Source of the DNA: Pristiophorus japonicus
Taxonomy: Eukaryota
Assembly (NCBI RefSeq): GCF_044704955.1
Contig: NC_092003.1
Span: 3,782,001 to 3,846,000, forward strand
DNA length: 64,000 nucleotides
Reading direction: 5' to 3'
In this document: piece after piece, positions 1 to 46,559 of the stretch
Numbering within the stretch: position 1 is the stretch's first letter
Layout: each line of letters opens with the position of its first letter
The notes under the pieces: model-generated
What the model saw: the letters and a program-made list of their open reading frames with translations, nothing else
Told to the model about the DNA's origin: nothing
Databases searched by the model: none
Program-made: the position numbers and the translations under genes

Positions 1-999
1 GCGGGGTGCAAAATCCCGACCAAGTTACCGCACCCCAGAAAGAAGGGCAGCCTCCCGGCAAAAATTGGCAACAGTGCGTTGGAGGGTTATTTCACCGGGA
101 GATTGCAGGGCCGAGCCTGAAGTGGATCCTGTCCGCCAGGGGTGATTGCAGAGCGACTGGGGGAGGGGAATGGGGCGGGGCAGGAACTTACATGCTGAAG
201 GGTACTGAGGTCAAGTGTAGTCATCCCGGGATGAGATCAGCAGGTTGGGAAGGAGCGATCTGGATATGTGTCGCCACTCATTAGCAATTGGACTCTGACT
301 TCCTACCGTTACACTTCGCACTCACACTGAGAGTTCCTGCACGTCAGTGGATTCTTCACCCCCTTAATCTGGGCCATTTGAAGGTGCTGAACATTCATTT
401 CGTGGTCTCTTGGGGTTTTTTTTTATTAATCTTCTCACTTTCTGTCTCTGAAGGCACAGATTGCAGCCGGGGCTCGTCCCTCCCCATCTCCCATATTCCG
501 GCACACGGGCCAAGAGGCTGTCCCTCGTGCCCGAGTCCCAGACTGCTGACGGTTGGCAGGGTATTCAACCAAGGCGGGCGGTGCAGAGTCTGGGAAACGG
601 TGCGATCTCACACAAGAGCCATCTGAGCTCCCACACAGAGCACAGAGCAGCCTGGGGAACACTGGGATTCAATACAGAGCAGTCTGGTGAGGAAAGACAA
701 TAACAATCGGTATCTCTCCGCCAGCCCAGTTGCTGACTCTTTTGCCCAAACTCCATCTCGACTCAGAGCTATATCTTCTTGGGCCGACCCCAGAGTCGAG
801 GATGACTTGCTTCCACACCGACAGGAGTCTTCAGGTGACAGTCTCTGTCACAGGCGGGGCTGGTGGAGGTTGAAGGGACGGGTGGGTGGGGTGCTTGGTT
901 TGTCGTATGCTGCCTCCCGCTGTCTGGTACTTGCCACGCACAGAGCACTGTAGCCCAGCAGTAAAATCCAAGAACGCCCCTCCTCGTATGCACGGCCCG

Positions 1000-1918
1000 A
1001 GTACATCTTCATCACAGGCAGTCCCTCGGAATCCAGGAAGACTCGCTTCCACTCTTAACATGAGTCCTCAGGTGGCTGAACAGTCCAATACGAGAACCAC
1101 AGTCCCCGTCACAGGTGGGACAGACAGTGGTTGAGGGAAAGGGAGGGTGGGACTGGTTTGCCGCACGCTCCTTCCGCTGCCTGCGCTTGGTTTCTGCACG
1201 CTCTCGGCGACGAGACTCGAGGTGCTCAGCGTCCTCCCGGATGCACTTCCTCCACTTAGGGCGGACTGGTCTTTGGCCAGGGACTCCCAGGTGTCGGTGG
1301 GGATGTTGCACTTTTATCAGGGAGGCTTTGAGGGTGGTCGCTTGTAACGTTTCCTCTGCCCACCTTTGGCTTGTTTGCCTGTGAAGGAGTTCCGAGTAGA
1401 GCGCTTGCTTTGGGAATCTCGTGTCGGGGCATGCGGACAATGTGGCCCTGCCCAGCGGAGCCGGTCGAGTGTGGTCAGTGCTTCGATGCTGGGGATGTTG
1501 GCCTGGTCGAGGACGCTAACGTTGGTGCGTCTGTCCTCCCAGGGGATTTGCAGGATCTTGCGGAGACATCGTTGGTGGTATTTCTCCAGCGACTTGAGGT
1601 GCCTACGGTACATGGTCCATGAATGTTGAAGATGAATGCTGTAATGTTGTGAAACAATAATAAATTAAATTAATCGCCAGACCTGTTGCCATCTCTAGCT
1701 GGTCTTTGGCCAGGAACTCCCAGGTGTCGGTGGGGATGTTGCACTTTATCAGGGAGGCTTTGAGGGTGTCCCCTGTAACGTTTCCACTGCCCACCTTTGA
1801 CTCGTTTGCCGTGAAGGAGTTCCGAGTAGAGCACTTGCTCTTGTGTCGGGGAATGCGAACGATGTGGCCCGCCCAGCGGAGCTGGTCGAGTGTGGTCAGT
1901 GCTTTGATGCTGGGGATG
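1000..1918 (-). mobile_element. RTE-clade LINE 3' fragments (two pieces); paralogous copies ~5098-6014 and ~9263-10178
   Basis: Translates to YHQRCLRKILQIPWEDRRTN...LRWAGH and a C-terminal CPTC..C.SRIGLFSHLRTH zinc knuckle typical of RTE ORFs; frameshifted. Confidence 0.9.
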
Positions 1919-2369
1919 TCACGCGCTGTGCACTTGTCCCATCGAACTGTCGGCTGTGAATTCCCGCGCTGTACAAACTGAGAGGCCCACACACACACCG
2001 GGACAGAACTTACACAGAGTCTTTAATCCACTGACAGTAACAAGAGCTACATCCGCCCGCCGTGATCTGCCCGCTGAGAGATGGGGGACAAGGGAGTTTC
2101 GCAGATGGGAAAAGGGGAATCAGGAGAACGCGATGGCCAGTGTTCTGTCGCACTGAACCTGGCTCGGCACAGCACACATCAGCTCCTGGGCAAGGGAAGA
2201 TACTCGACTCTCTTAGCGAGGGACTCAGTCCCACCCCACCCCGTCAAACCAATCAGAGGGGCTGCACACTTCCCTCAACTGTAAATCTGGGCAGGGAGAG
2301 TGGCCGAGAAGTGCTCGTGTCCCCTTTACCTTAGACCTATGTCGCCTCGAAATTAAGAGGGGATGATGT

Positions 2370-3085
2370 AATTATTATTTAAATGGAGAAAGATTGCAAA
2401 GTGCTGCAGTACAGCGGGACCTGGGGGTTACTTGTGCATGAAACACCAAAGGATAGTATGCAGGTACAGCAAGTGATCAGGAAGGCCAATGGTATCTTGG
2501 CCTTTATTGCAAAAGGAGGAGTATAAAAGCAGGGAAGTCTTGCTACAGTTACACAGGGTATTGGTGAGGCCACACCTGGAGTACTACGTGCAGTTTTGGT
2601 TTCTATATTTACGAAAGGAAGCAGTTCAGAGAAGGTTCACTCGGTTGATTCCAGAGATGAGGGTGTTGACTTATGAAGAAAGGTTGAGGAGGTTGGGCCT
2701 CTACTCATTGGAGTTCAGAAGAATGAGAGGTGATCTTATCGAAATGTATAAGATTATGAGGGGGCTTGACAAGGTGGATGCAGAGAGGATGTTCCTACTG
2801 ATGGGGGAGACTAGAACTAGGGGGCATGGTCTTAGAATAAGGGGCCGCCCATTTAAAACTGAGCTGAGGAGGAATTTCTTCTCTCAGAGGGTTGTAAATC
2901 TGTGGAATTCACTGTCTCAGAGAGCTGTGGAGGCTGGGACATTGAATATATTTAAGACAGAGATCAACAGTTTCTTAACCGATAAGGGGATAAGGGGGCG
3001 GGCAGGGAAGTGGAGCTGAGTCCATGATCGGATGAGCCATGATCGTATTAAAAGGCCTACTCCTGCTCCTATTTTTTATGTTCTA
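2370..3085 (+). mobile_element. CR1 (HER1-like) LINE 3' fragment; paralogous copies ~6470-7185 and ~10605-11325
   Basis: LVRPHLEY.VQFW...RRMRGDLIE.YKI...RTRGH...FFSQRVVNLWNSL motifs of CR1 ORF2, followed by the CR1 3' UTR. Confidence 0.92.
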
Positions 3086-3124
3086 ATTGAGGTCTGTAAA
3101 CGGATTAAAGGATTCCATAGGGTA

Positions 3125-3985
3125 AAGAAAGACTTGGATTTATATAGCGCCATTCGAGACCACCGGACGTCTCAAAGCACCTCACAGCCAATGAAGTAAT
3201 TTCGGAGTGCGCTCACTGTTGTAATGTGGGAAACGCCAATTTGCGCACAGCAAGCTCCCACACACAGCAATGTGATAATGACCCAGATCATCTGTTTTAG
3301 TGATGTTGGTCGAGGGATAAATATTGGCCCGAGGACACCGGGGAGAACTCCCCTGCTCTTCTTCCAATAGTGGCCCCGGGATCTTTTACATCCCCCCCGA
3401 GAGGGCAGACGGGGCCTTGGTTTAACGTCTCATCCGAAAGACGGCACCTCCGACAGTGCGGCACTCCCTCAGCACTGTCCCTCCAACAGTGCGGTGCTCC
3501 CTCACTACTGCCCCTCCGACAGTGCGGCGCTCCCTCAGTACTGTCCCTCCGACAGTGCGGCGCTCCCTCAGTACTGCCCCTCCGACAGTGCGGCGCTCCC
3601 TCAGTAAGCCCCTCCGACAGTGCGGCGCTCCCTCAGCACTGTCCCTCCGACAGTGCGGCACTCCCTCAGCACTGTCCCTCCAACAGTGCGGTGCTCCCTC
3701 AGTACTGCCCCTCCGACAGTGCGGCACTCCCTCAGCACTGCCCCTCCGACAGTGCGGCGCTCCCTCAGTACCGGCCCTCCGACAGTGCGGCGCTCCCTCA
3801 GTACCGCCCCTCCGACAGTGCGGCGCTCCCTCAGTACTGCCCCTCCGACAGTGCGGTGCTCCTTCAGTACGGCCCCTCCCACAATATTGGCCTAGATTAT
3901 GGGGCTTGTGTCTGTGAAGCAGAGACCCTTACCCGCGACCTTCTGACTCGGAGGTGTGAGTCCCTCCCAGTGAGACAGGGCTGAC
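3125..3985 (-). mobile_element. tRNA-derived DeuSINE (SacSINE1/AmnSINE1-like) with internal 33-bp minisatellite; copy at ~7225-8150
   Basis: Degenerate tRNA-like head at the right end; body GCCGTCTTTCGGATGAGACGTTAAACC...GAAGAGCAGGGGAGTTCTCCCC; L2-type tail GGCGCTATATAAAT. The family name is recalled, not searched. Confidence 0.8.
3447..3870. repeat. 33-bp minisatellite (CAGTACTGCCCCTCCGACAGTGCGGCGCTCCCT)n inside SINE; paralogous arrays ~7546-8035 and ~11665-12118
   Basis: Direct tandem repeat visible; 11-aa periodic translations (DSAALPQYCPS). Confidence 0.95.
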
Positions 3986-6900
3986 GAAGGAGCGGACTGG
4001 CGGGAGGGAAGCAAAACAGCAGACGGCTGACTTATCCACAGCGTAGCCTCATTTCCCACGCACCCCACCCCTCAAATGGGCAGTGGCGAGATGCAAGCGG
4101 GGTGCAAAATCCCGACCAAGTTACCGCACCCCAGAAAGAAGGGCAGCCTCCCGGCAAAAATTGGCAACAGTGCGTTGGAGGGTTATTTCACCGGGAGATT
4201 GCAGGGCCGAACCTGAAGTGGATCCTGTCCGCCAAGGGTGATTGCAGAGCGACTGGGGGAGGGGAATGGGGCGGGGCAGGAGCTTACATGCTGAAGGGTA
4301 CTGAGGTCAAGTGTAGTCATCCCGTGATGAGATCAGCAGGTTGGGAAGGAGCGATCTGGATATGTGTCGCCATTTATTAGCAATTGGACTCTGACTTCCT
4401 ACCGTTACACTTCGCACTCACACTGAGAGTTCCTGCACATCAGTGGATTCCTCACCCCCTTAATCTGGGCCATTTGAAGGTGCTAAACATTCATTTCGTG
4501 GTCTCTTGCCGTTTTTTTTTATTAATCTTCTCACTTTCTGTCTCTGAAGGCACAGATTGCAGCCGGGGCTCGTCCCTCCCCATCTCCCATATTCCGGCAC
4601 ACGGGCCAAGAGGCTGTCCCTCGTGCCCGAGTCCCAGACTGCTGACGGTTGGCAGGGTATTCAACCAAGGCGGGCGGTGCAGAGTCTGGGAAACGGTGCG
4701 ATCTCACACAAGAGCCATCTGAGCTCCCACACAGAGCACAGAGCAGCCTGGGGAACACTGGGATTCAATACAGAGCAGTCTGGTGAGGAAAGACAATAAC
4801 AATCGGTATCTCTCCGCCAGCCCAGTTGCTGACTCTTTTGCCCAAACTCCATCTCGACTCAGAGCTATATCTTCTTGGGCCGACCCCAGAGTCGAGGATG
4901 ACTTGCTTCCACACCGACAGGAGTCTTCAGGTGACAGTCTCTGTCACAGGCGGGGCTGGTGGAGGTTGGAGGGACGGGTGGGTGGGCTGCTTGGTTTGTC
5001 GTATGCTGCCTCCCGTTGTCTGGTACTTGCCACGCACAGAGCACTGTAGCCCAGCAGTAAAATCCAAGACTGCCCCTCCTCGTATGCACGGCCCGAGTAC
5101 ATCTTCATCACAGGCAGTCCCTCGGAATCCAGGAAGACTCGCTTCCACTCTTAACATGAGTCCTCAGGTGGCTGAACAGTCCAATACGAGAACCACAGTC
5201 CCCGTCACAGGTGGGACAGACAGTGGTTGAGGGAAGGGGAGAGTGGGACTGGTTTGCCGCACGCTCCTTCCGCTGCCTGCGCTTGGTTTCTGCACGCTCT
5301 CGACGACGAGACTCGAGGTGCTCAGCGTCCTCCCGGATGCACTTCCTCCACTTAGGGCGGACTGGTCTTTGGCCAGGGACTCCCAGGTGTCGGTGGAGAT
5401 GTTGCACTTTTATCAGGGAGGCTTTGAGGGTGGTCGCTTGTAACGTTTCCTCTGCCCACCTTTGGCTTGTTTGCCTGTGAAGGAGTTCCGAGTAGGGCGC
5501 TTGCTTTGGGAATCTCGTGTCGGGGCATGCGGACAATGTGGCCCTGCCCAGCGGAGCCGGTCGAGTGTGGTCAGTGCTTCGATGCTGGGGATGTTGGCCT
5601 GGTCGAGGACGCTAACGTTGGTGCGTCTGTCCTCCCAGGGGATTTGCAGGATCTTGCGGAGACATCGTTGGTGGTATTTCTCCAGCGACTTGAGGTGCCT
5701 ACGGTACATGGTCCATGAATGTTGAAGATGAATGCTGTAATGTTGTGAAACAATAATAAATTAAATTAATCGCCAGACCTGTTGCCATCTCTAGCTGGTC
5801 TTTGGCCAGGAACTCCCAGGTGTCGGTGGGGATGTTGCACTTTATCAGGGAGGCTTTGAGGGTGTCCCCTGTAACGTTTCCACTGACCACCTTTGACTCG
5901 TTTGCCGTGAAGGAGTTCCGAGTAGAGCACTTGCTCTTGTGTCGGGGAATGCGAACGATGTGGCCCGCCCAGCGGTGCTGGTCGAGTGTGGTCAGTGCTT
6001 TGATGCTGGGGATGTCACGCGCTGTGCACTTGTCCCGTCGAACTGTCGGCTGTGAATTCCCGCGCTGTACAAACTGAGAAGCCCACACACACACCGGGAC
6101 AGAACTTACACAGAGGTGTCTTTAATCCACAGACAGTAACAAGAGCTACATCCGCCCGCCGTGATCTGCCCGCTGAGAGATGGGGGACAAGGGAGTTTCG
6201 CAGATGGGAAAAGGGGAATCAGGAGAACGCGATGGCCAGTGTTCTGTCGCACTGAACCTGGCTCGGCACAGCACACATCAGCTCCTGGGCAAGGGAAGAT
6301 ACTCGACTCTCTTAGCGAGGGACTCAGTCCCACCCCACCCCGTCAAACCAATCAGAGGGGCTGCACACTTCCCTCAACTGTAAATCTGGGCAGGGAGAGT
6401 GGCCGAGAAGTGCTCGTGTCCCCTTTACCTTAGACCTGTGTCGCCTCGAGATTAAGAGGGGGTGATGTAATTATTATTTAAATGGAGAAAGATTGCAAAG
6501 TGCTGCAGTACAGCGGGACCTGGGGGTTACTTGTGCATGAAACACCAAAGGATAGTATGCAGGTACAGCAAGTGATCAGGAAGGCCAATGGTATCTTGGC
6601 CTTTATTGCAAAAGGAGGAGTATAAAAGCAGGGAAGTCTTGCTACAGTTACACAGGGTATTGGTGAGGCCACACCTGGAATACTACGTGCAGTTTTGGTT
6701 TCCATATTTACGAAAGGAAGCAGTTCAGAGAAGGTTCACTCGGTTGATTCCGGAGATGAGGGGGTTGACTTATGAAGAAAGGTTGAGGAGGTTGGGCCTC
6801 TACTCATTGGAGTTCAGAAGAATGAGAGGTGATCTTATCGAAATGTATAAGATTATGAGGGGGCTTGACAAGGTGGATGCAGAGAGGATGTTTCCACTGA

Positions 6901-9900
6901 TGGGGGAGACTAGAACTAGGGGGCATAATCTTAGAATAAGGGGCCGCCCATTTAAAACTGAGCTGAGGAGGAATTTCTTCTCTCAGAGGGTTGTAAATCT
7001 GTGGAATTCTCTGCCCCAGAGAGCTGTGGAGGCTGGGACATTGAATATATTTAAGACAGAGATCAACAGTTTCTTAACCGATAAGGGGATAAGGGGGCGG
7101 GCAGGGAAGTGGAGCTGAGTCCATGATCGGATGAGCCATGATCGTATTAAATGGCCTACTCCTGCTCCTATTTTTTATGTTCTAATTGAGGTCTGTAAAC
7201 GGATTAAAGGATTACATAGGGTAAAGAAAGACTTGGATTTATATAGCGCCATTCGAGACCACCGGACGTCTCAAAGCACCTCACAGCCAATGAAGTAATT
7301 TCGGAGTGCGCTCACTGTTGTAATGTGGGAAACGCCAATTTGCGCACAGCAAGCTCCCACACACAGCAATGTGATAATGACCCAGATCATCTGTTTTAGT
7401 GATGTTGGTCGAGGGATAAATATTGGCCCGAGGACACCGGGGAGAACTCCCCTGCTCTTCTTCCAATAGTGGCCCCGGGATCTTTTACATCCAGCCGAGA
7501 GGGCAGACGGGGCCTCGGTTTAACGTCTCATCCGAAAGACGGCACTTCCGACAGTGCGGCACTCCCTCAGCACTGTCCCTCCAACAGTGCGGTGCTCCCT
7601 CACTACTGCCTCTCCAACAGTGCGGCGTTCCCTCAGTACTGCCCCACCGACAGTGCGGCGCTCCCTCAGTACAGCCCCTCCGACAGTGCAGCGCTCCCTC
7701 AGTACCACCCCTCCGACAGTGCGGGGCTCCCTCAGCACTGCCCCTCCGACACTGCGGCACTCCCTCAGCACTGCCCCTCCGACAGTGCGGCGCTCCCTCA
7801 GTACCGGCCCTCCGACAGTGCAGCGCTCCCTCAGTACCACCCCTCCGACAATGCGGGGCTCCCTCAGCACTGCCCCTCTGACAGTGCGGTGCTCCCTCAG
7901 CACTGCCCCTCCGACAGTGCGGCGCTCCCTCAGTACCGGCCCTCCGACAGTGCGGCGCTCCCTCAGTACCGCCCCTCCGACAGTGCGGCGCTCCCTCAGT
8001 ACTGCCCCTCCGACAGTGCGGTGCTCCTTCAGTACGGCCCCTCCCACAATATTGGCCTAGATTATGGGGCTTGTGTCTGTGGAGCAGAGACCCTTACCCG
8101 CGACCTTCTGACTCGGAGGTGTGAGTCCCTCCCAGTGAGACAGGGCTGACGAAGGAACGGACTGGCGGGAGGGAAGCAAAACAGCAGACGGCTGACTTAT
8201 CCACAGCGTAGCCTCATTTCCAACGCACCCCACCCCTCAAATGGGCAGTGGCGAGATGCAAGCGGGGTGCAAAATCCCGACCAAGTTACCGCACCCCAGA
8301 AAGAAGGGCAGCCTCCCGGCAAAAATTGGCAACAGCGCGTTGGAGGGTTATTTCACCGGGAGATTGCAGGGCCGAACCTGAAGTGGATCCTGTCCGCCAG
8401 GGGTGATTGCAGAGCGACTGGGGGAGGGGAATGGGGCGGGGCAGGAACTTACATGCTGAAGGGTACTGAGGTCAAGTGTAGTCATCCCGGGATGAGATCA
8501 GCAGGTTGGGAAGGAGCGAACTGGATATGTGTCGCCACTCATTAGCAATTGGACTCTGACTTCCTACCGTTACACTTCGCACTCACACTGAGAGTTCCTG
8601 CACGTCAGTGGATTCTTCACCCCCTTAATCTGGGCCATTTGAAGGTGCTGAACATTCATTTCGTGGTCTCTTGGGGGTTTTTTTTATTAATCTTCTCACT
8701 TTCTGTCTCTGAAGGCACAGATTGCAGCCGGGGCTCGTCCCTCCCCATCTCCCATATTCCGGCACACGGGCCAAGAGGCTGTCCCTAGTGCCCGAGTCCC
8801 AGACTGCTGACAGTTGGCAGGGTATTCAACCAAGGCGGGCGGTGCAGAGTCTGGGAAACGGTGCGATCTCACACAAGAGCCATCTGAGCTCCCACACAGA
8901 GCACAGAGCAGCCTGGGGAACACTGGGATTCAATACAGAGCAGTCTGGTGAGGAAAGACAATAACAATCGGTATCTCTCCGCCAGCCCAGTTGCTGACTC
9001 TTTTGCCCAAACTCCATCTCGACTCAGAGCTATATCTTCTTGGGCCGACCCCAGAGTCGAGGATGACTTGCTTCCACACCGACAGGAGTCTTCAGGTGAC
9101 AGTCTCTGTCACAGGCGGGGCTGGTGGAGGTTGGAGGGACGGGTGGGTGGGGTGCTTGGTTTGTCGTATGCTGCCTCCCGCTGTCTGGTACTTGCCACGC
9201 ACAGAGCACTGTAGCCCAGCAGTAAAATCCAAGACAGCCCCTCCTCGTATGCACGGCCCGAGTACATCTTCATCACAGGCAGTCCCTCGGAATCCAGGAA
9301 GACTCGCTTCCACTCTTAACATGAGTCCTCAGGTGGCTGAACAGTCCAATACGAGAACCACAGTCCCCGTCACAGGTGCGACAGACAGTGGTTGAGGGAA
9401 GGGGAGGGTGGGACTGGTTTGCCGCACGCTCCTTCCGCTGCCTGCGCTTGGTTTCTGCACGCTCTCGGCGACGAGACTCGAGGTGCTCAGCGCCCTCCCG
9501 GATGCACTTCCTCCACTTAGGGCGGTCTGGTCTTTGGCCAGGGACTCCCAGGTGTAGGTGGAGATGTTGCACTTTTATCAGGGAGGCTTTGAGGGTGGTC
9601 GCTTGTAACGTTTCCTCTGCCCACATTTGGCTTGTTTGCCTGTGAAGGAGTTCCGAGTAGGGCGCTCGCTTTGGGAATCTCGTGTCGGGGCATGCGGACA
9701 ATATGGCCAGCCCAGCGGAGCTGGTCGAGTGTGGTCAGTGCTTCGATGCTGGGGATGTTGGCCTGGTCGAGGACGCTAACCTTGGTGCGTCTGTCCTCCC
9801 AGGAGATTTGCAGGATCTTGCGGAGACATCGTTGGTGATATTTCTCCAGCGACTTGAAGTGCTTACTGTACATGGTCCATGAATGTTGAAGATGAATGCT

Positions 9901-11364
9901 GTAATGTTGTGAAACAATAATAAATTAAATTAATCGCCAGACCTGTTGCCATCTCTAGCTGGTCTTTGGCCAGGAACTCCCAGGTGTCGGTGGGGATGTT
10001 GCACTTTATCAGGGAGGCTTTGAGGGTGTCCCTGTTACATTTCCACTGCCCACCTTTGACTCGTTTGCCGTGAAGGAGTTCCGAGTAGAGCACTTGCTCT
10101 TGTGTCGGGGAATGCGAACGATGTGGCCCGCCCAGCGGAGCTGGTCGAGTGTGGTCAGTGCTTTGATGCTGGGGATGTCACGCGCTGTGCACTTGTGCCG
10201 TCGAACTGTCGGCTGTGAATTCCCGCGCTGTACAAACTGAGAGGCCCACACACACACCGGGACAGAACTTACACAGAGGTGTCTTTAATCCACAGACAGT
10301 AACAAGAGCTACATCCGCCCGCCATGATCTGCCCGCTGAGTGATGGAGGACAAGGGAGTTTCACAGATGGGAAAAGGGGAATCAGGAGAACGCGATGGCC
10401 AGTGTTCTGTCGCACTGAACCTGGCTCGGCACAGCACACATCAGCTCCTGGGCAAGGGAAGATACTCGACACTCTTAGCGAGGGATTCAGTCCCACCCCA
10501 CCCCGTCAAACCAATCAGAGGGGCTGCACACTTCCCTCAACTGTAAATCTGGGCAGGGAGAGTGGCCGAGAAGTGCTCGTGTCCCCTTTACCTTAGACCT
10601 GTGATGTAATTATTATTTGAATGGAGAAAGATTGCAAAGTGCTGCAGTACAGCGGGACCTGGGGGGTACTTGTGCATGAAACACCAAAGGATAGTATGCA
10701 GGTACAGCAAGTGATCAGGAAGGCCAATGGTATCTTGGCCTTTATTGAAAAAGGAGGAGTATAAAAGCAGGGAAGTCTTGCTACAGTTACACAGGGTATT
10801 GGTGAGGCCACACCTGGAGTACTACGTGCAGTTTTGGTTTCCATATTTACGAAAGGAAGCAGTTCAGAGAAGGTTCACTCGGTTGATTCCGGAGATGAGG
10901 GGGTTGACTTATGAGGAAAGGTTGAGTAGGTTGGGCCTCTACTCATTGGAATTCAGAAGAATGAGAGGTGATCTTATCGAAACGTATAAGATTATGAGGG
11001 GGCTCGACAAGGTGGATGCAGAGAGGATGTTTCCACTGATGGGGGTGACTCGAACTAGGGGGCATAATCTTCGAATAAGGGGCCGCCCATTTAAAACTGA
11101 GCTGAGGAGGAATTTCTTCTCTCAGAGGGTTGTAAATCTGTGGAATTCACTGCCTCAGAGAGCTGTGGAAGCTGGGACATTGAATATATTTAAGACAGAG
11201 ATCGACAGTTTCTTAACCGATAAGGGGATAAGGGGACGGGCAGGGAAGTGGAGCTGAGTCCATGATCGGATCAGCCATGATCGTATTAAATGGTCTACTC
11301 CTGCTCCTATTTTTTAATGTTCTAATTGAGGTCTGTAAACGGATTAAAGGATTCGATAGGGTAA

Positions 11365-12228
11365 AGAAAGACTTGGATTTATATAGCGCCATTCGAGACC
11401 ACCGGACGTCTCAAAGCACCTCACAGCCAATGAAGTACTATCGGAGTGCGCTCACTGTTGTAATGTGGGAAAAGCCAATTTGCGCACAGCAAGCTACCAC
11501 ACACAGCAATGTGATAATGACCCAGATCATCTGTTTTAGTGATGTTGGTTGAGGGATAAATATTGGCCCCAGGACACTGGGGAGAACTCCCCTGCTCTTC
11601 TTCCAATAGTGGCCCGAGAGTGCAGACAGAGACTCGGTTTAACGTCTCATCCGAAAGACGGCACCTCCGACAGTGCAGCGCTCCCTCAGTACCACCCCTC
11701 CGACAGTGCGGGGCTCCCTCATTACTGCCCCCGACAGTGCGGCGCTCTCCCTCAGTACCGGCCCTCCGACAGTGCGGCGCTCCCTCAGTACTGCCCCTCC
11801 GACAGTGTGGCGCTCCCTCAGTACTGCCCCTCCGACAGTGCAATGCTCCGTCAGTACTGTCCCTCCGACAGTGCGGCGCTCCCTCAGTACCGCCCCTCCG
11901 ACAGTGCGGCGCTCCCTCAGTACCGCCCCTCTGACAGTGCGGCGCTCCCTCAGTACTGCCCCTCCGACAATGCGGCGCTCCCTCAGTACTGCCCCTCCGA
12001 CAGTGTGGCGCTCCCTCGGTACCGCCCCTCCGACAGTGCGGCGTTCCCTCGGTACTGCCCCTCCGACAGTACGCCGCTCCCTCAGTACTGCCCCTCCGAC
12101 AGTGCGGCGCTCCTTCAGTGCTGCACTGGGTGTGTCAGCCTAGGTGTGCCCAAGTTGCCAGGAGTGGGACTTGAACCAACAACCTTCTGACTCAGAGGCG
12201 AGGGTGCTGCCCACTGAGCTACGGCTGA
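11365..12228 (-). mobile_element. DeuSINE copy with well-preserved tRNA head (Pol III A/B boxes)
   Basis: The - strand reads TCAGCCGTAGCTCAGTGGGCAGCACCCTCGCCTCTGAGTCAGAAGGTTGTTGGTTCAAGTCCCACTCC (A box TAGCTCAGTGG, B box GGTTCAAGTCC), then the minisatellite, body and tail. Confidence 0.85.
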
Positions 12229-12715
12229 TTGCACTGACTTTTAACACATGGAAATCTGACACAGTTGGTGAATGTCGATGTAGAAGGTCGGTGAGAAGCT
12301 TATTTTGATTAATATCTCGGTCAAAAGGTTCTTGGAATAGTGATTCGGGGACTTGTGCAATGAAGTGGGGCAGGCTTGTGTTGAGTATTAAGGTTGGCAT
12401 CGACTGGCTGGGCCGCATGGCCTGGCTCGGAGGGAAATCCCTTGAGGGGAGGGCGGCTAGCTGCACTGCAACCGACACGCAGCCTGCCTTTTGACATCAC
12501 TGGCATCTGCAAATTCCAGGAAATTCTGGCCACAGTGTTACGGGTGCCTGCTCTCTGACAGCGACAATAATGTACAGCCAGCAAAGGATTAGCGTGATTA
12601 CTGTCCCACGGAATGTGCCAGCTGTGATTCAGCCGGCGGGGTGTAGCGTGCGAATCTCGTGACTCTCAGCTGTGCGTGCGTACGTGTGGTGGGGGCAGAG
12701 GGGGAGGGGGATTAC

Positions 12716-14460
12716 ACAGCACAGGAGGATCCCATCGAGCCCGTGCTGTGCCGGCTCTGTGACAGAGCGATCCAATCAGTCCCACTCCCCCCGCTGCTCT
12801 TTCCCCACAGCCCCGGGCACATTTCTCCTGTCCCAGTATTGATCCAATTCCCGGTTTGAAAATCACGATTGAATCTGCTCCCACCGCCCTTTCAGGCAGC
12901 GCGTTCCCGATCACAACAACTCGCTGCGTAAAAACATTCTCCTCGTCTCCCCCTCTGGTTCCATCGCCGATTATCGTCAATCCGTGTCCCTCTGGTTACC
13001 ATAAGAAATAGGAGCAGGAGTCGGCCATTCGGCCCCTCGAGCCTGCTCCGCCATTCAATAAGTTTGCGGCTGATCTGATCCTGGCCTCAACTCCACTTCC
13101 CCGCCCGCTCCCCATAACCCTCGACTCCCTTATCGCTCAAAAATTTACCTTATCACCACCTTTAAATATATTCACTGACCCAGCCTCCACAGCTCTCTGG
13201 GGCAGAGAATTCCACAGATTCACGAGGAGAAATTCCTCCTCATCGCTGACTTAAACGGGCGGCCCCTGATTCTGAGACCGTGCCCCCTAGTTCTAGATTC
13301 CCCCACGAGGGGAAACCTCCTCTCTGCATCTACCCAGTCAGGACCCTTCCCGCCAATGGGAACAGTTTCTCCCGATCTATTCTACCCGAACCGTTCATGA
13401 TTTTGAACACCTCGACCAAACTTCCTCTCAACCTTCTCTGCTCCAAAGACAACCACCCCAGCCTCTCCACGTTGCCCTCTGGTTTGTACTGATCACTTCC
13501 GGGATCAGCTCCCTGTATGTAGAAAGCAGCCCCAGTCAAACTCGGAGCCCAGAAGCTCGCACTCGGAGTGGAGAGAGCCTCGTCACAGTCTCAGAACGAG
13601 GGCTCGGCCATTTAGGACTGAGGTGAGGAGGAATTTCTTCACTCAGAGGGTGGTGAATCTTTGGAATTCTCTGCCCCAGGGGGCTGTGGAAGTTCTGCTA
13701 AGTCGCAACAAGACAGCGCTCGATAGATTTTTTGGATATTAAGGGAATCAAGGGAAATGGGGACAGTGCAGGAAAGTGGGGTTGAGGTCGAAGATCAGCC
13801 GTGATCCCATTGGATGGCGGAGCAGGCTCGAGGGGCCGAATGGTCGACTCCTGTTCCTAATTCTTACACGAACAGCAGAGCTTTGCGACAGCAATCGGCG
13901 GAGAAACTGGAGAAGCTGGGGCTGTTCTCCCTGGAGCAGAGGAGATTGACCAGAATGGTCCGCAGGATAGCAACATAGAAATTTGCAGCGCAGGAGGGGG
14001 CTGTTTCGGCCCATCGTTGAGGGGCTTCAGTGAGGTGGTGAGACTGGAGAAGCCGGGGTTGGAGCAGAGAAGGTTAAGGGGGAGATTTGATCGAGGTGTT
14101 CACAATCACGGGGGGGGGGGTTCTGATGGAGTAAATGAGGAGGGACTGTTCCCGGGGGCAGGAGGGCCGGTAACCAGAGGGACACGGATTGACGATAATC
14201 GGCGATGGAACCAGAGGGGGAGACGAGGAGAATGTTTTTACGCAGCGAGTTATTGTGATCGGGAACGCGCTGCCTGAAAGGGCGGTGGGAGCAGGTTCAA
14301 TCGTGACTTTCAAACCGGGAATTGGATCAATACTGGGACAGGAGAAATGTGCCCGGGCTGTGGGGAAAGAGCAGGGGGGGAGTGGGACTGATTGGATCGC
14401 TCTGTCACAGAGCCGGCACAGCACGGGCTCGAGGGGCCCAGTGGGATGCTCCTGTGAGCT
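12716..14460. mobile_element. Cluster of CR1 3' fragments in both orientations, including a ~265-bp inverted pair (12735-13000 / 14169-14432)
   Basis: CR1 motifs (FTQRVV..WN/GNALPE, SLEQRRLRG) and 3' UTR GGCCATTCGGCCCCTCGAGCCTGCTCCGCC. The two arms are reverse complements. Confidence 0.85.
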
Positions 14461-39878: not shown

Positions 39879-40148
39879 CTGGTATTCCTCGGAGGTCATG
39901 CCGAGCGCCGTGGCCGCTTCCTGAAGCTCGCAGAGGGGCTGAGCTTTGAAGAGCTTCTGCAGCAGCACGTAGATGGCGGGTGACTCTGGCGAGGTCTGTA
40001 ACAGCACCACCAGCCCGCCGTACCAGGAGGCCCGCGAGACGTAGTGCGCATACAGCTTCTCCTCCTTTGACAGGAGCTGGAAGGCCTCCTTGCAGTCCAG
40101 CAGCGAGATGCCGACATCGTTGGGCAACACGTACTGAGAGTCCACCAT
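39879..40148 (-). CDS. DPP3: DPP3 (dipeptidyl peptidase 3) first coding exon, MVDSQYVLPNDVGISLLDCKEAFQLLS...MTSEEYQ
   Basis: N-terminus matches DPP3 (YILPND...LDC.EAF..LS..E..YAH..SRA.WYGGL.VLLQTSPE). ATG in AAGATGG context; donor CAG/GTAAAG; 270 bp, phase 0. Likely acceptor at ~40180. Confidence 0.96.
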
Positions 40149-41565: not shown

Positions 41566-42525
41566 TTAAAAGGCACACACACACTCCTATTAAAAAGAGA
41601 AATGCACACCCCAATATTACAAAGGAAGCCACACCCGGCCTCCCCACCCCAATATTAAAGGGACATGCCTATTCCTAATATTAAAGAGTCCTGCACATCC
41701 CCAATATTAAAGAGATATGCGCCCCCATAATAAATGCACATACACCCCAATATTAAAGGCACATGCACCCCCCAATATTAAAAGGATATGCACCCAATAT
41801 TAAAGAGACATGGACCCCCCAATATTAAAGAGACATACATCCCCCCAATATTAAAGGGACATGCACCCCCAATATTAAAGAGACATGCACCCCCCAATAT
41901 TAAAGAGACATGCACCCCCCAATATTAAAGAGACATGCACCCCCCAATATTAAAGAGACATGCACCCCCCAATATTAAAAGGACATGCACCCCCCCAATA
42001 TTAAAAGGACATGCACCCCCCCAATATTAAAGGGACATGCACCCCATCCCAATATTAAAGGGACATACACCCACCCCAATATTAAAGGGACATGCACCCC
42101 CCACAATATTAAAGGGACATGCACCCCCCACAATATTAAAGGGACATACATCCCCCCAATATTAAAGAGACATACATCCCCCCAATATTAAAGAGACATG
42201 CACCCCCCAATATTAAAGGGACATGCACCCCATCCCAATATTAAAGGGACATGCACCCACCCCAATATTAAAGGGACATGCACCCCCCACAATATTAAAG
42301 GGACATGCACCCCCCACAATATTAAAGGGACATGCACCCCCCACAATATTAAAGAGACATGCACCCACCCCCCAATATTAAAGGGACATGGACCCCCCCC
42401 AATATTAAAGGGACATGCACCCCCACAATATTAAAGGGACATGCACCCCCACAATATTAAAGGGACATGCACCCCCACAATATTAAAGGGACATGCACCC
42501 CCACAATATTAAAGGGACATGCACA
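41565..42525. repeat. ~26-30-bp minisatellite (CCCAATATTAAAGGGACATGCACCCC)n
   Basis: Degenerate tandem repeat upstream of the DPP3 CDS. Confidence 0.92.
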
Positions 42526-42639
42526 CTTTAATATATTTTCCCCTCCCTGGCCACAAAAGGAAAGTTTCCCGGGAGAATAAAGTTGCTGAGAGATTGAATC
42601 CAGTCAGTGAGGGCCCACATGGAGCAGCCCCGAGCTTCC

Positions 42640-43830
42640 CCCCCGCACCTACAGTTACCGGCGCCTCGCTTCTCCGCCGCTTCATTCATCCACTGCCTGC
42701 GGCCTGAGATGACCTGGGGCCGGCCGGCGCAGCCCCTGCCCCTCCCAGGGCCTCTCTCCGCCAATCCCACACCGCCGCCGCCTGTCAGACAACTGTTTCG
42801 ACCAAGCGCACGCCGCCACTGCCGGACGGACATCTGCTTCAGCCAATGGCGTGCCACGGCGCCACCCAGCCCCCACCTGGCGCACCGCCACCGCCTCCCG
42901 GGATCCCTCTTCGCCAATCGCGCGTCGCCGGCTCTAATGGACACCTCCTTCCGCCAATCGGTTGCAACCCATGTCTGATGGACAGCTGCCTGGACCAATA
43001 GCGCACCGCAGCGCCACCCGGCCCCCCCTTTTACACCAATCAGGCAGCGCCGCCTCCCGGGCGCCTGATCCGCCAATCACGCGTCGCCAACTGTGATGGT
43101 CGTTTCCCTCCACCAATCGCCCATCCTTATCCGCTGACGGGCCTCGCCCTCCGCCCTCCGCGGACCGCGCCGCCTCCCCTCCGCTCTCCGCCAATGGAAC
43201 GTCGCCTCCACTTGATGGACAGCTTCCTCCACCAATTGGAGGGCGCCACTCCCTGACTGACGCGAGTCGCATCCAATGGAAAAGCGGTGGGAGGCGGGAC
43301 CGCCGTTCAAAGATATCAGGTGGTTAACGCCTGGGCGGTTGGTAATGACTTCTGCTTGTGACCGTTTGAAAATAAAAAATAAAATAAATTTCTTACACCG
43401 GAGACCGCGGGAGGATATTTAATAATCGTTGGGCAAAAAATAAATGAAGCAACGTTGGACCTGACCTGACATTAATTGATTGACAGGCGGGTCAGCCAAT
43501 GGAGAGGCGGATTGGTATGACTGACGTTCCAATTGTCCAGTCGGAGCGCGAGGCGGGTGGGACTCCAGGGGTCGAGGGTTATGGCGACACTTAGAAAGCA
43601 TTTGTGACTAAGAATCGGGCTCAATCTCAAATCAAACAAGCTACACTGCGAGTCAATGTTATTATCTTTTAATTTTTTTCCCATAATGGAATTTTATCGC
43701 AGTTAGAAATAGTTTTTTGGGGATCCGGGAACTATTGGCGGGGCTTTTGGTTGTCCGGGGGAAGGTTTAGAGCGGGACGCATTCAGCACTGAAAGGGTCC
43801 GTCCCTTGGTAAGGGTCCGCCCCGCGAAAA
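42640..43830. promoter_or_regulatory. CpG-island bidirectional promoter region for DPP3 (-) and DMAC1 (+), with phased CCAAT/DECA array
   Basis: CpG-rich and TE-free. CCAAT at 42761, 42843, 42914, 42954, 42995, 43036, 43073, 43113, 43191, 43232, 43273, 43496, 43529; GC boxes; YY1-like AAAATGGCG at the DMAC1 start. A possible DPP3 non-coding exon 1 donor (CG/GTAACT) at ~42658 is unconfirmed. Confidence 0.8.
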
Positions 43831-44031
43831 TGGCGGGTTCTGGCAAAAACGAGGAGGCTGCTGCTGCTGCTGCTCCCGCTCAACTCTTCAAGGACTGCTG
43901 GGGCTGCCGGGCGGTGAGCGGCGGCGGCCTGATCGGGGCGGGGGGCTACGTGTTGGCCGCCGCCCGCCGGGTGATGCAGCGAGGGGCCCCGCCCGGCCTG
44001 GGCGCCGTGGCCCAGATTGTCTTCGGCCTTG
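43830..44031 (+). CDS. DMAC1: DMAC1 (TMEM261) exon 1: MAGSGKNEEAAAAAAPAQLFKDCWGCRAVSGGGLIGAGGYVLAAARRVMQRGAPPGLGAVAQIVFGL
   Basis: CW.CR..SG.GL.GAGGYV...AR motif of the DMAC1/DUF4536 family; ATG in AAAATGG context; donor G/GTGAGT, phase 1. Confidence 0.9.
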
Positions 44032-44374
44032 GTGAGTGGCCATGGAGGGAGGGGGGACATGGGCCAGCTTCTCTCCCCTGGAGGAGCTGATCCATCTCCC
44101 CACAGCCGCCCTACGCCCGCCAACCACCACCCCCACCCCCACCCCCACCACATTCTGCCCGCTATTTGACTGTGGGAGGCATCACACCCTGGCCAAAAAT
44201 ATAGATCGGCCTTTCCTTCATCCTGGCTGGGTCAGAATCCTGGAATTCCCTCCCGAACTGCGCCGCGAGGGAGCGCCTTCACCCCACCAGCTCGCCGCCA
44301 CCTTCGCGAGGGGCGACCAGCGACGTCCCATCCCCCATCCCATAGAACGAATAAAAGCAAAAACATTGGCACAT

Positions 44375-46497: not shown

Positions 46498-46559
46498 GTC
46501 TGGCATCCTGGGGTGTGGTGATCTTAGTCGACCCGGTTGGGAAATCTCACCCAAAGTAG
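46498..46559 (+). CDS. DMAC1: DMAC1 exon 2 (GLASWGVVILVDPVGKSHPK*); total 87 aa
   Basis: Pyrimidine tract + CAG acceptor; phase matches exon 1; resembles human IATWGIVVMADPKGK; TAG TAA stops. Confidence 0.9.

What the first reader, a model, noticed from the sequence alone, without database searches (positions are those of the whole stretch)
42761..43533. Helically phased array of DECA(PBX/PREP)-9bp-CCAAT(NF-Y) composite elements in the DPP3/DMAC1 bidirectional promoter
Seen: eleven same-orientation CCAAT boxes at 42761, 42843, 42914, 42954, 42995, 43036, 43073, 43113, 43191, 43232, 43273. Spacings are 82, 71, 40, 41, 41, 37, 40, 78, 41, 41, and a CCAAG at 42802 fills the first gap in register. 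The intervening DNA is not a conserved tandem repeat. However, a decamer resembling TGANTGACAG sits exactly 9 bp before several boxes: TGATGGACAG at 42976 and 43213, TAATGGACAC at 42935, TGATGGTCGT at 43094, TGACTGACGC at 43254, GGACGGACAT at 42824. A perfect TGATTGACAG-N9-CCAAT occurs again at 43477-43500. Established: TALE (PBX-PREP) DECA motifs co-occur with NF-Y CCAAT boxes at constrained spacing in vertebrate promoters, and CCAAT boxes are enriched in bidirectional promoters, usually as a few copies. Inference: about a dozen modules at ~4 helical turns, with motifs and spacing kept while spacers diverged, looks like a selected periodic NF-Y/TALE scaffold, possibly built from an ancient 41-bp tandem duplication.
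Basis: partly seen in the sequence, partly recalled or inferred. Interest (0 to 1): 0.72.

Follow-up and report, generated by a model that had tools for sequence, protein, structure and literature searches.

The report
Phased NF-Y/PBX promoter array, known grammar
Between two back-to-back housekeeping genes (DPP3 and DMAC1) of a probable shark lies a row of twelve old, diverged copies of a 41-base unit in which two short signals stayed intact while the rest drifted; it is likely a multi-site landing pad for the gene-activating proteins NF-Y and PBX/PREP, a layout already known from mammals and repeated at 18 other promoter-like places in this genome.

Summary
Eleven same-strand CCAAT boxes plus one CCAAG sit at the stated places in a CpG island between head-to-head DPP3 and DMAC1. 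Seven of the 12 units carry a DECA-like site at the published geometry (GAnnGAC, 11 bp, CCAAT); 4 are exact, and a fifth exact one lies at 43477. The block is a diverged higher-order tandem duplication, single-copy in the genome, with motif columns kept far better than the rest (32/35 against 62%). The layout is not unique: 18 other CpG-island loci carry tandem composites, 11 of them at 41-42 bp. The composite, helically phased CCAAT repeats and 41-bp NF-Y arrays are each published, so this is a large new member of a known kind. Binding, function and cross-species conservation were not testable. The less expected by-product is two unrelated transposon-like families in this genome that carry tandem DECA-CCAAT arrays at 40 and about 52 bp; the window's array shows no descent from them. 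The scan noted similar arrays earlier on other DNA (SP2, UBL5, WRN/PURG, FAN1).

The parts
39879..40148 (-). DPP3 first coding exon (coding part, 90 codons from the ATG)
   Evidence: matches residues 1-90 of human DPP3, E 2e-33
42653..42747 (-). Likely DPP3 5' untranslated exon, at least this long; a GT donor follows at 42652
   Evidence: one contig of run X6 covers it and continues for 91 letters elsewhere; where those letters lie was not shown
42600..44100 (.). CpG island spanning both gene starts
   Evidence: CpG observed/expected 0.87 here, 0.99 over the array, 0.56 for the window
42726..43290 (+). Array of 12 units of about 41 bp, organised as four higher-order blocks (42726-42878, 42879-43037, 43038-43155, 43156-43290) of pattern A-B-B-C, A-B-B-C, A-B-(C), A-B-B
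   Evidence: blocks 53-68% alike; 4 of 6 block pairs significant with motif letters masked
42783..42806 (+). B unit, DECA core with one mismatch plus CCAAG; also TGACAG on the minus strand
42824..42847 (+). B unit, exact GAnnGAC-N11-CCAAT
42935..42958 (+). B unit, DECA core with one mismatch plus CCAAT
42976..42999 (+). B unit, exact composite (TGATGGACAG)
43094..43117 (+). B unit, DECA core with one mismatch plus CCAAT
43213..43236 (+). B unit, exact composite (TGATGGACAG)
43254..43277 (+). B unit, exact composite (TGACTGACGC)
42738..43195 (+). Four A units (CCAAT at 42761, 42914, 43073, 43191) without DECA; three carry CCGCCTCCC and one CCCCTCCC in its place, GC-box-like (Sp/KLF label recalled). 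One C unit (CCAAT at 43036) has a C-rich tract.
43477..43500 (+). Separate perfect composite TGATTGACAG-N9-CCAAT, 223 bp after the array and nearer DMAC1
43511..43533 (.). ATTGG, a TGACTGACGT decamer and a CCAAT, not in the 11-bp geometry
43830..44031 (+). DMAC1 exon 1 coding part; the ATG lies in a YY1-like AAAATGGCGG context (label recalled)
46498..46559 (+). DMAC1 exon 2 coding part
   Evidence: contigs of 3 runs continue from exon 1 into this sequence; 87-residue open frame

Best explanation
The block is an old, higher-order tandem duplication of a 41-bp unit in the CpG island between DPP3 and DMAC1, and it likely works as a redundant, multi-site promoter platform on which NF-Y would bind the CCAAT boxes and PBX/PREP the DECA sites 11 bp upstream, probably bridged by Sp2. 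Shown: the motifs, their geometry, the duplication history, the better retention of motif columns, single copy number and the recurrence of the 41-42-bp period at other islands. Inferred: selection kept the motifs; 41 bp (4 turns of about 10.3 bp) is favoured because it is the shortest in-phase period that leaves room for a PBX/PREP dimer between two NF-Y trimers (NF-YB reaches +17 from a box, and the next DECA starts at +22 at 41 bp but at +12 at 31 bp); bound NF-Y keeps the island free of nucleosomes and supports constitutive transcription, chiefly of the adjoining DPP3 start and possibly of DMAC1, which has its own composite at 43477.
For: Geometry equals the published GAnnGAC-11bp-CCAAT. 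In the 7 B units the DECA core is kept in 32 of 35 cells and CCAAT in 34 of 35, against 134 of 217 (62%) for other columns; Fisher P 2e-4; 0 of 20,000 neutral star-model runs reach this. All three NF-Y-type flank features occur at 8 of 13 boxes, at 19% of 130 other boxes in the window and at 0 of 24 boxes of the neighbouring minisatellite. CpG o/e is 0.99. Of 18 other CpG-island loci with tandem composites, 11 have a period of 41-42 bp within a 35-48 search range, P 7e-5; in 7 of the 18 the two units are no more alike than chance outside the motifs, so the period is not only a product of duplication. Other CCAAT spacings in these islands are in phase at 10.3 bp (60 values, P 2.5e-4). The same search with a 15-bp spacer gives 1 match. 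Five of 18 scanned loci have a recognisable gene downstream. NF-Y footprint and phasing: PMC4982600.
Against: No binding, chromatin or reporter data. No orthologous promoter could be fetched, so selection rests on comparison among the copies themselves; these are not independent, a star tree is crude, and I assigned B units knowing the motifs. Five of 12 units lack DECA and 3 of the 7 others have a core mismatch. Two junctions are out of phase. Two of 6 block pairs are not significantly alike with motifs masked (P 0.07 and 0.69). For periods of 49-73 bp the phase signal rests on hand-sorted loci: pooled 25 loci P 0.003, but the 11 loci alone P 0.27, and nothing at a period of 10.5. Thirteen of 18 scanned loci gave no gene hit. 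About a quarter of this window is minisatellite by rough reading, so tandem duplication needs no adaptive cause.
Confidence: 0.7

Rival explanations
1. A decayed minisatellite: an ordinary one- or two-site promoter element was amplified by the repeat-prone machinery of this region, only one or two sites matter, and the rest is passenger DNA.
For: The window is crowded with minisatellites (97 rows). The block is a duplication product. Young, near-identical composite arrays exist at other loci (L140 91%, L144 75% outside the motifs). Minisatellites with a chance composite exist outside islands (L125, L137).
Against: Non-motif columns have drifted to 43% pairwise identity among B units (chance 30%) while 11 of 12 boxes and 32 of 35 DECA cells are intact; passenger copies should have lost them.
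Confidence: 0.14
2. An exapted transposon or LTR: the array is the relic of a mobile element carrying DECA-CCAAT repeats, like human LTR12 or the two families found here.
For: This genome has a TA-flanked element with terminal inverted repeats and 40-bp DECA-CCAAT units and a second family with units of about 52 bp. LTR12 carries 5-17 NF-Y repeats of about 41 bp. The best blastn match of the array to family 1 is 71% over 69 bp, E 0.014.
Against: One match in the genome by DNA search and 3 of 3 pattern matches at this locus. No match of either family's arms in 42500-44100 at E up to 10 (the family 2 profile had only 2 copies, so that test is weak). The array's spacers match family 1 at 4.9 of 11 bases, inside the range 2.1-6.9 of 20 unrelated islands. 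The one search match is centred on the shared motifs.
Confidence: 0.08
3. A single continuous superhelical scaffold in which all twelve sites must be bound in phase and act as one cooperative structure steering both genes.
For: 9 of 11 neighbour spacings lie within 0.12 turn of a whole number at 10.3 bp. NF-Y bends DNA by about 80 degrees.
Against: The 37- and 78-bp junctions are 3.59 and 7.57 turns. Two C units lost their box. The DMAC1 ATG is 557 bp beyond the last box and has a separate composite before it.
Confidence: 0.08

Closest known systems
DECA-CCAAT composite bound by PBX/PREP, NF-Y and Sp2; mouse Sp2 promoter (bioRxiv 10.64898/2026.02.16.706105: abstract, sections 3, 22, 24 and passages seen)
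   Same: Same GAnnGAC-11bp-CCAAT geometry and orientation; several copies in one promoter (Sp2: five CCAAT, three with DECA).
   Different: Twelve units with seven DECA-like sites, built by higher-order duplication; no binding data here.
Helically phased CCAAT direct-repeat promoters in human (Haubrock 2016, PMC4982600: abstract and passages); tandem CCAAT at Sp2 sites, 30-50 nt apart (Voelkel 2015, PMC4368557: passages)
   Same: Same-strand boxes at whole helical turns (31, 41, 52, 63 bp).
   Different: The human peak is at 31 bp and concerns pairs without regard to DECA; composite pairs in this genome peak at 41-42 bp and form long runs.
Mrps12/Sarsm bidirectional promoter with an array of four CCAAT boxes (PMC1802594: abstract and passages)
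   Same: Head-to-head housekeeping genes, a mitochondrial partner, boxes on one strand.
   Different: There under 200 bp, four boxes, tested by reporter and ChIP; here about 1 kb, 13 boxes, untested.
LTR12/ERV9 U3 enhancer (PMC11853044, PMC3730095: passages)
   Same: 5-17 tandem units of about 41 bp, each with an NF-Y site, in several unit subtypes.
   Different: Retroviral, thousands of copies, partners GATA-2/MZF1/MAF; this block is single-copy, has DECA sites and shows no LTR features.
ABO CBF/NF-Y minisatellite enhancer (PMC2988417: passages)
   Same: Tandem-amplified NF-Y site acting on a host gene.
   Different: One to four repeats about 4 kb upstream, polymorphic; here an old, strongly diverged array at the gene start.

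Membership tests
DECA-CCAAT composite (TALE/NF-Y/Sp2) | GAnnGAC followed by 11 bp and CCAAT on one strand | tested here: met
   5 exact of 13 boxes, 3 more units with one mismatch; geometry
DECA-CCAAT composite (TALE/NF-Y/Sp2) | NF-Y-type flanks around CCAAT | tested here: met
   purine at -1 in 11 of 13, C/G at +1 in 10 of 13, purine at +2 in 12 of 13; the flank rule is recalled and was recovered from 88 composites of 20 islands
DECA-CCAAT composite (TALE/NF-Y/Sp2) | Location in a promoter or enhancer | tested here: met
   CpG island between two gene starts
DECA-CCAAT composite (TALE/NF-Y/Sp2) | Co-binding by PBX/PREP, NF-Y and Sp2 | not testable with these tools
   needs ChIP or EMSA
DECA-CCAAT composite (TALE/NF-Y/Sp2) | Conservation of the sites across species | not testable with these tools
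   no related genome is held; the run search listed one organism only
Phased CCAAT direct-repeat promoter | Same-strand boxes at whole helical turns | tested here: met
   9 of 11 spacings in phase, 2 not
Phased CCAAT direct-repeat promoter | NF-Y and c-Fos occupancy | not testable with these tools
   no chromatin data
Bidirectional CCAAT-array promoter (Mrps12/Sarsm type) | Head-to-head starts under 1 kb apart | tested here: inconclusive
   head-to-head is shown; transcript-like contigs reach 42747 and 43820, at most 1,073 bp apart, and contigs cannot show starts
Bidirectional CCAAT-array promoter (Mrps12/Sarsm type) | The array drives both directions | not testable with these tools
   needs a dual reporter
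LTR12/ERV9-type U3 array | Tandem NF-Y units of about 41 bp | tested here: met
LTR12/ERV9-type U3 array | Part of a multi-copy LTR | tested here: not met
   single copy by DNA search and by pattern; both searches can miss very old copies
Transposon family 1 of this genome (40-bp units) | Terminal inverted repeats and arm sequence around the array | tested here: not met
   profiles from 25 loci give no match in 42500-44100 at E up to 10
Transposon family 2 of this genome (about 52-bp units) | Arm sequence and G-rich unit with GC box | tested here: inconclusive
   unit length and strand bias differ; arm profile from only 2 copies finds nothing here
Minisatellite or VNTR enhancer (ABO type) | Closely similar head-to-tail units | tested here: not met
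   no 41-bp hit by Tandem Repeats Finder at score 30; masked identity 38-54%

The most novel reading that the evidence does not exclude
The DECA-CCAAT composite has a second-order grammar: modules stack at 41-42 bp, the closest in-phase packing of NF-Y and PBX/PREP, and at about 52 bp when a GC box is added. In sharks two unrelated miniature DNA transposon families have adopted exactly these arrays and spread hundreds to thousands of them, acting as mobile NF-Y/TALE enhancers active at genome activation and possibly seeding host promoter arrays such as this one.
Probability: 0.15. Interest if true: 0.68.

Novelty: new member of a known kind. Interest (0 to 1): 0.36.

Why it matters
As it stands it is an unusually long natural example of a known promoter module, useful as a test piece: spacer insertions here could show whether NF-Y/TALE modules cooperate across 41 bp and why composites prefer four turns to the three seen for plain CCAAT pairs. 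The genome-wide peak at 41-42 bp and the transposon-borne arrays matter more than this locus. A survey of NF-Y on human and mouse transposable elements found binding only at retroviral ones, with TALE sites in a non-canonical position (PMC12065363, passages), so DNA transposons with canonical, tandem composites would be a new route for spreading such modules.

Tried and rejected
Orthologue comparison: not possible; no related genome is held and the run search listed 7 runs of one organism, with no RNA holder listed. Runs X5-X7 have no contig over the array; that gap is not used as evidence. The join of the DPP3 5' exon to its coding exon was not shown and stays inferred from one contig's end at a GT donor. 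Descent from family 1 or 2: not supported. A 13-base match between the window (near 43318) and one family 1 copy (L020) was noticed; it was not seen in the other nine aligned copies nor picked up by the arm profiles, and is taken as chance. Family 1 as a neutral comparator for motif retention: inconclusive, because partial end units were mixed in (125 of 192 units intact). Periods of 23-34 bp gave 41 matches, mostly low-complexity minisatellites, not tested statistically. The reversed-pattern controls that the search tool prints vary widely (16, 0, 31, 26, 107, 703, 1), probably through single satellites, so I counted loci rather than matches. Pfam scans of 288 reading frames found genes at 5 of 18 loci; a mucin-like hit below cut-off was ignored. 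One search, a bacterial promoter scan, was irrelevant. Voelkel 2018 (J Biol Chem), the primary paper on the composite, is not held and is known here only through citing papers; it and its supplements, and the closed supplements of the bioRxiv preprint, may already report multi-copy spacing.

Full report
Observation. The eleven CCAAT boxes, their spacings, the CCAAG at 42802 and the quoted decamers are all present as described. A decamer plus 9 bp equals the published core geometry GAnnGAC-11bp-CCAAT. It is exact at 42843, 42995, 43232, 43273 and 43496, that is 5 of the 13 plus-strand boxes in 42761-43533 (chance 5e-13), and has one mismatch at 42802, 42954 and 43113. Five units have no DECA-like site; four of them have a C-rich, GC-box-like stretch instead (label recalled).

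Setting. The window lies in a 5.9-Gb genome, which I take to be a shark; this is inferred from size and repeat content and from earlier notes of the scan, and was not checked. DPP3 starts on the minus strand (first coding exon 39879-40148) and DMAC1 on the plus strand (ATG at 43830). Contigs of three runs from one study, not on record as RNA, pass from DMAC1 exon 1 into sequence that lies at 46500, so they behave as spliced transcripts. One contig covers 42653-42747 and ends at a GT donor, as a DPP3 5' exon would; it reaches to 14 bp from the first box. A DNA run agrees with the assembly across the array. CpG o/e is 0.99 over the array and 0.56 over the window.

Architecture. Tandem Repeats Finder sees no 41-bp repeat, but the block resolves into four higher-order blocks, 53-68% alike. 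With motif letters masked, 4 of 6 block pairs still score above shuffles (P 0.002, 0.002, 0.002, 0.018) and 2 do not (0.07, 0.69). Among the 7 B units the DECA core is kept in 32 of 35 cells and CCAAT in 34 of 35, other columns in 134 of 217; 0 of 20,000 neutral star-model runs match this. The units are not independent and were assigned with the motifs in view, so the P values are indicative. Nine of 11 neighbour spacings are whole turns at 10.3 bp; 37 and 78 bp are about half a turn off.

Is it a mobile element? The block has one match in the genome, and a pattern for its A-to-B junction finds 3 matches, all here. A search for tandem composites 38-44 bp apart gave 634 matches; 98 of the 100 listed belong by eye to one family with a 40-bp unit. 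That family (F1) is 393-1,085 bp long, has terminal inverted repeats in 25 of 37 loci examined (a few are the same element twice) and TA on both sides in 14 of those 25, as Tc1/mariner-type miniature elements do (classification recalled); a DNA search gave 2,073 first-look candidates. A second family (F2) has a unit of mostly 50-54 bp with GC box, DECA and CCAAT and shared arms (103 matches); hAT-like ends are visible by eye, but my pattern found both in only 2 of 17 loci. Neither family's arms match the window's promoter, and the window's spacers are no closer to F1 than those of 20 unrelated islands.

Is it unusual in this genome? A search that avoids most F1 copies (periods 35-48 bp) gave 86 matches. 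After setting aside the obvious F1 and F2 rows and the window, 23 loci were examined. Five were dropped as not CpG islands (periods 41, 37, 39, 42, 46; the 39 is an F2 variant). Of the 18 left, 11 have a period of 41-42 bp (P 7e-5, corrected for the choice of bin), and in 7 the paired units are no more alike than chance outside the motifs. Several are as long as the window's array or nearly: 7 boxes at 41-42 bp in L131, 11 exact composites in L129, 6 in L144. Sixty other adjacent CCAAT spacings in these islands are in phase at 10.3 bp (P 2.5e-4). Letters not in the search pattern follow the expected factor preferences (T before the core 85%, purine after it 93%, purine two bases after CCAAT 92%). 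With a 15-bp spacer the same search gives 1 match. For periods of 49-73 bp I kept one value per locus or family from 49 and 35 matches, dropping F1, F2 and minisatellite rows by eye: 25 values cluster near 50-52, 59-62 and 69-72 (P 0.003), but the 11 alone are not significant (P 0.27) and the best period is about 10.1, not 10.5. Pfam found genes at 5 of 18 loci scanned, 16 frames each (a 6-phosphogluconolactonase-type domain, BLOC1S3, Misato, a dynamin-family domain, RAMP4), all downstream in the DECA-to-CCAAT direction. In the window that direction points to DMAC1, while DPP3 abuts the array from the other side.

Mechanism. Shown: motifs, geometry, duplication, retention, recurrence. Established: PBX/PREP and NF-Y bind this composite and Sp2 bridges them at 11 bp; NF-Y bends DNA by about 80 degrees, keeps promoters nucleosome-free, and contacts DNA from -7 to +17 of a box. 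Inferred: at 41 bp the next DECA starts at +22 and clears that footprint, at 31 bp it would start at +12 and overlap it, which would explain why composites peak at four turns while plain CCAAT pairs in human peak at three. The array then acts as three phased runs of redundant modules. I put this at 0.7.

Comparison. Each ingredient is in print: the composite and a promoter with three of them, tandem CCAAT 30-50 nt apart at Sp2 sites, phasing at 31/41/52/63 bp, a CCAAT array in a bidirectional promoter, 41-bp NF-Y arrays in LTR12 and an NF-Y minisatellite at ABO. Passages of PMC7793273, PMC6023610, PMC11802806, PMC3730095 and the TF-COMB preprint add the zebrafish and ENCODE support and nothing on multi-copy period. 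My nine searches showed no paper on a 41-42-bp period of whole composites or on animal DNA transposons with such arrays; most subscription papers, including Voelkel 2018, were not searchable. Earlier notes of this scan describe like arrays at SP2, UBL5, WRN/PURG and FAN1; they are unchecked and not counted as support.

Verdict. Real, well formed and probably functional, but a new member of a known kind. Interest 0.36. The genome-wide period and the two transposon-like families are the parts worth following.

Noticed in passing
L002-L031, L037-L066 (e.g. G000:C1:511065124-511065814): Family F1: miniature DNA-transposon-like element, 393-1,085 bp, terminal inverted repeats, TA flanks, with 1-16 internal 40-bp units each a near-perfect DECA-N9-CCAAT; 2,073 first-look candidates.
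   Followed up: partly
L067-L096, L120 (e.g. G000:C6:142491895-142492077): Family F2: second dispersed element of about 400-500 bp with hAT-like ends (label recalled) and tandem units of mostly 50-54 bp holding GC box, DECA and CCAAT; variants of 39 and 46 bp.
   Followed up: partly
L129, L131, L132, L135, L141, L144, L140: Other CpG-island arrays of 4-11 exact composites, beside genes with PGLS-type, BLOC1S3, Misato, dynamin-family and RAMP4 domains; L141 has a 63-bp period.
   Followed up: partly
G000:C19:4294591-5367802 and several small contigs: A multi-locus family with DECA-CCAAT plus GC-box units at a 71-73-bp period, clustered on one contig; may be promoters of a tandem gene family.
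   Followed up: no
G000:C3757:63242-63488: Young 32-bp tandem array of perfect composites, an exception to the proposed packing limit.
   Followed up: no
window 41647-42524: 26-bp minisatellite (34 copies) in DPP3 intron 1, next to the island; many copies contain CCAAT but 0 of 24 have NF-Y-type flanks, a useful negative control.
   Followed up: yes
window 1-12800: A unit of about 4.1 kb appears three times in tandem (matching CCAAT and minisatellite positions about 4,100 bp apart): a local duplication within the DPP3 region or an assembly effect.
   Followed up: no
window 43857-43874: GCT repeat encoding a poly-alanine run at the DMAC1 N-terminus; read cover in the DNA run breaks just after it.
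   Followed up: no
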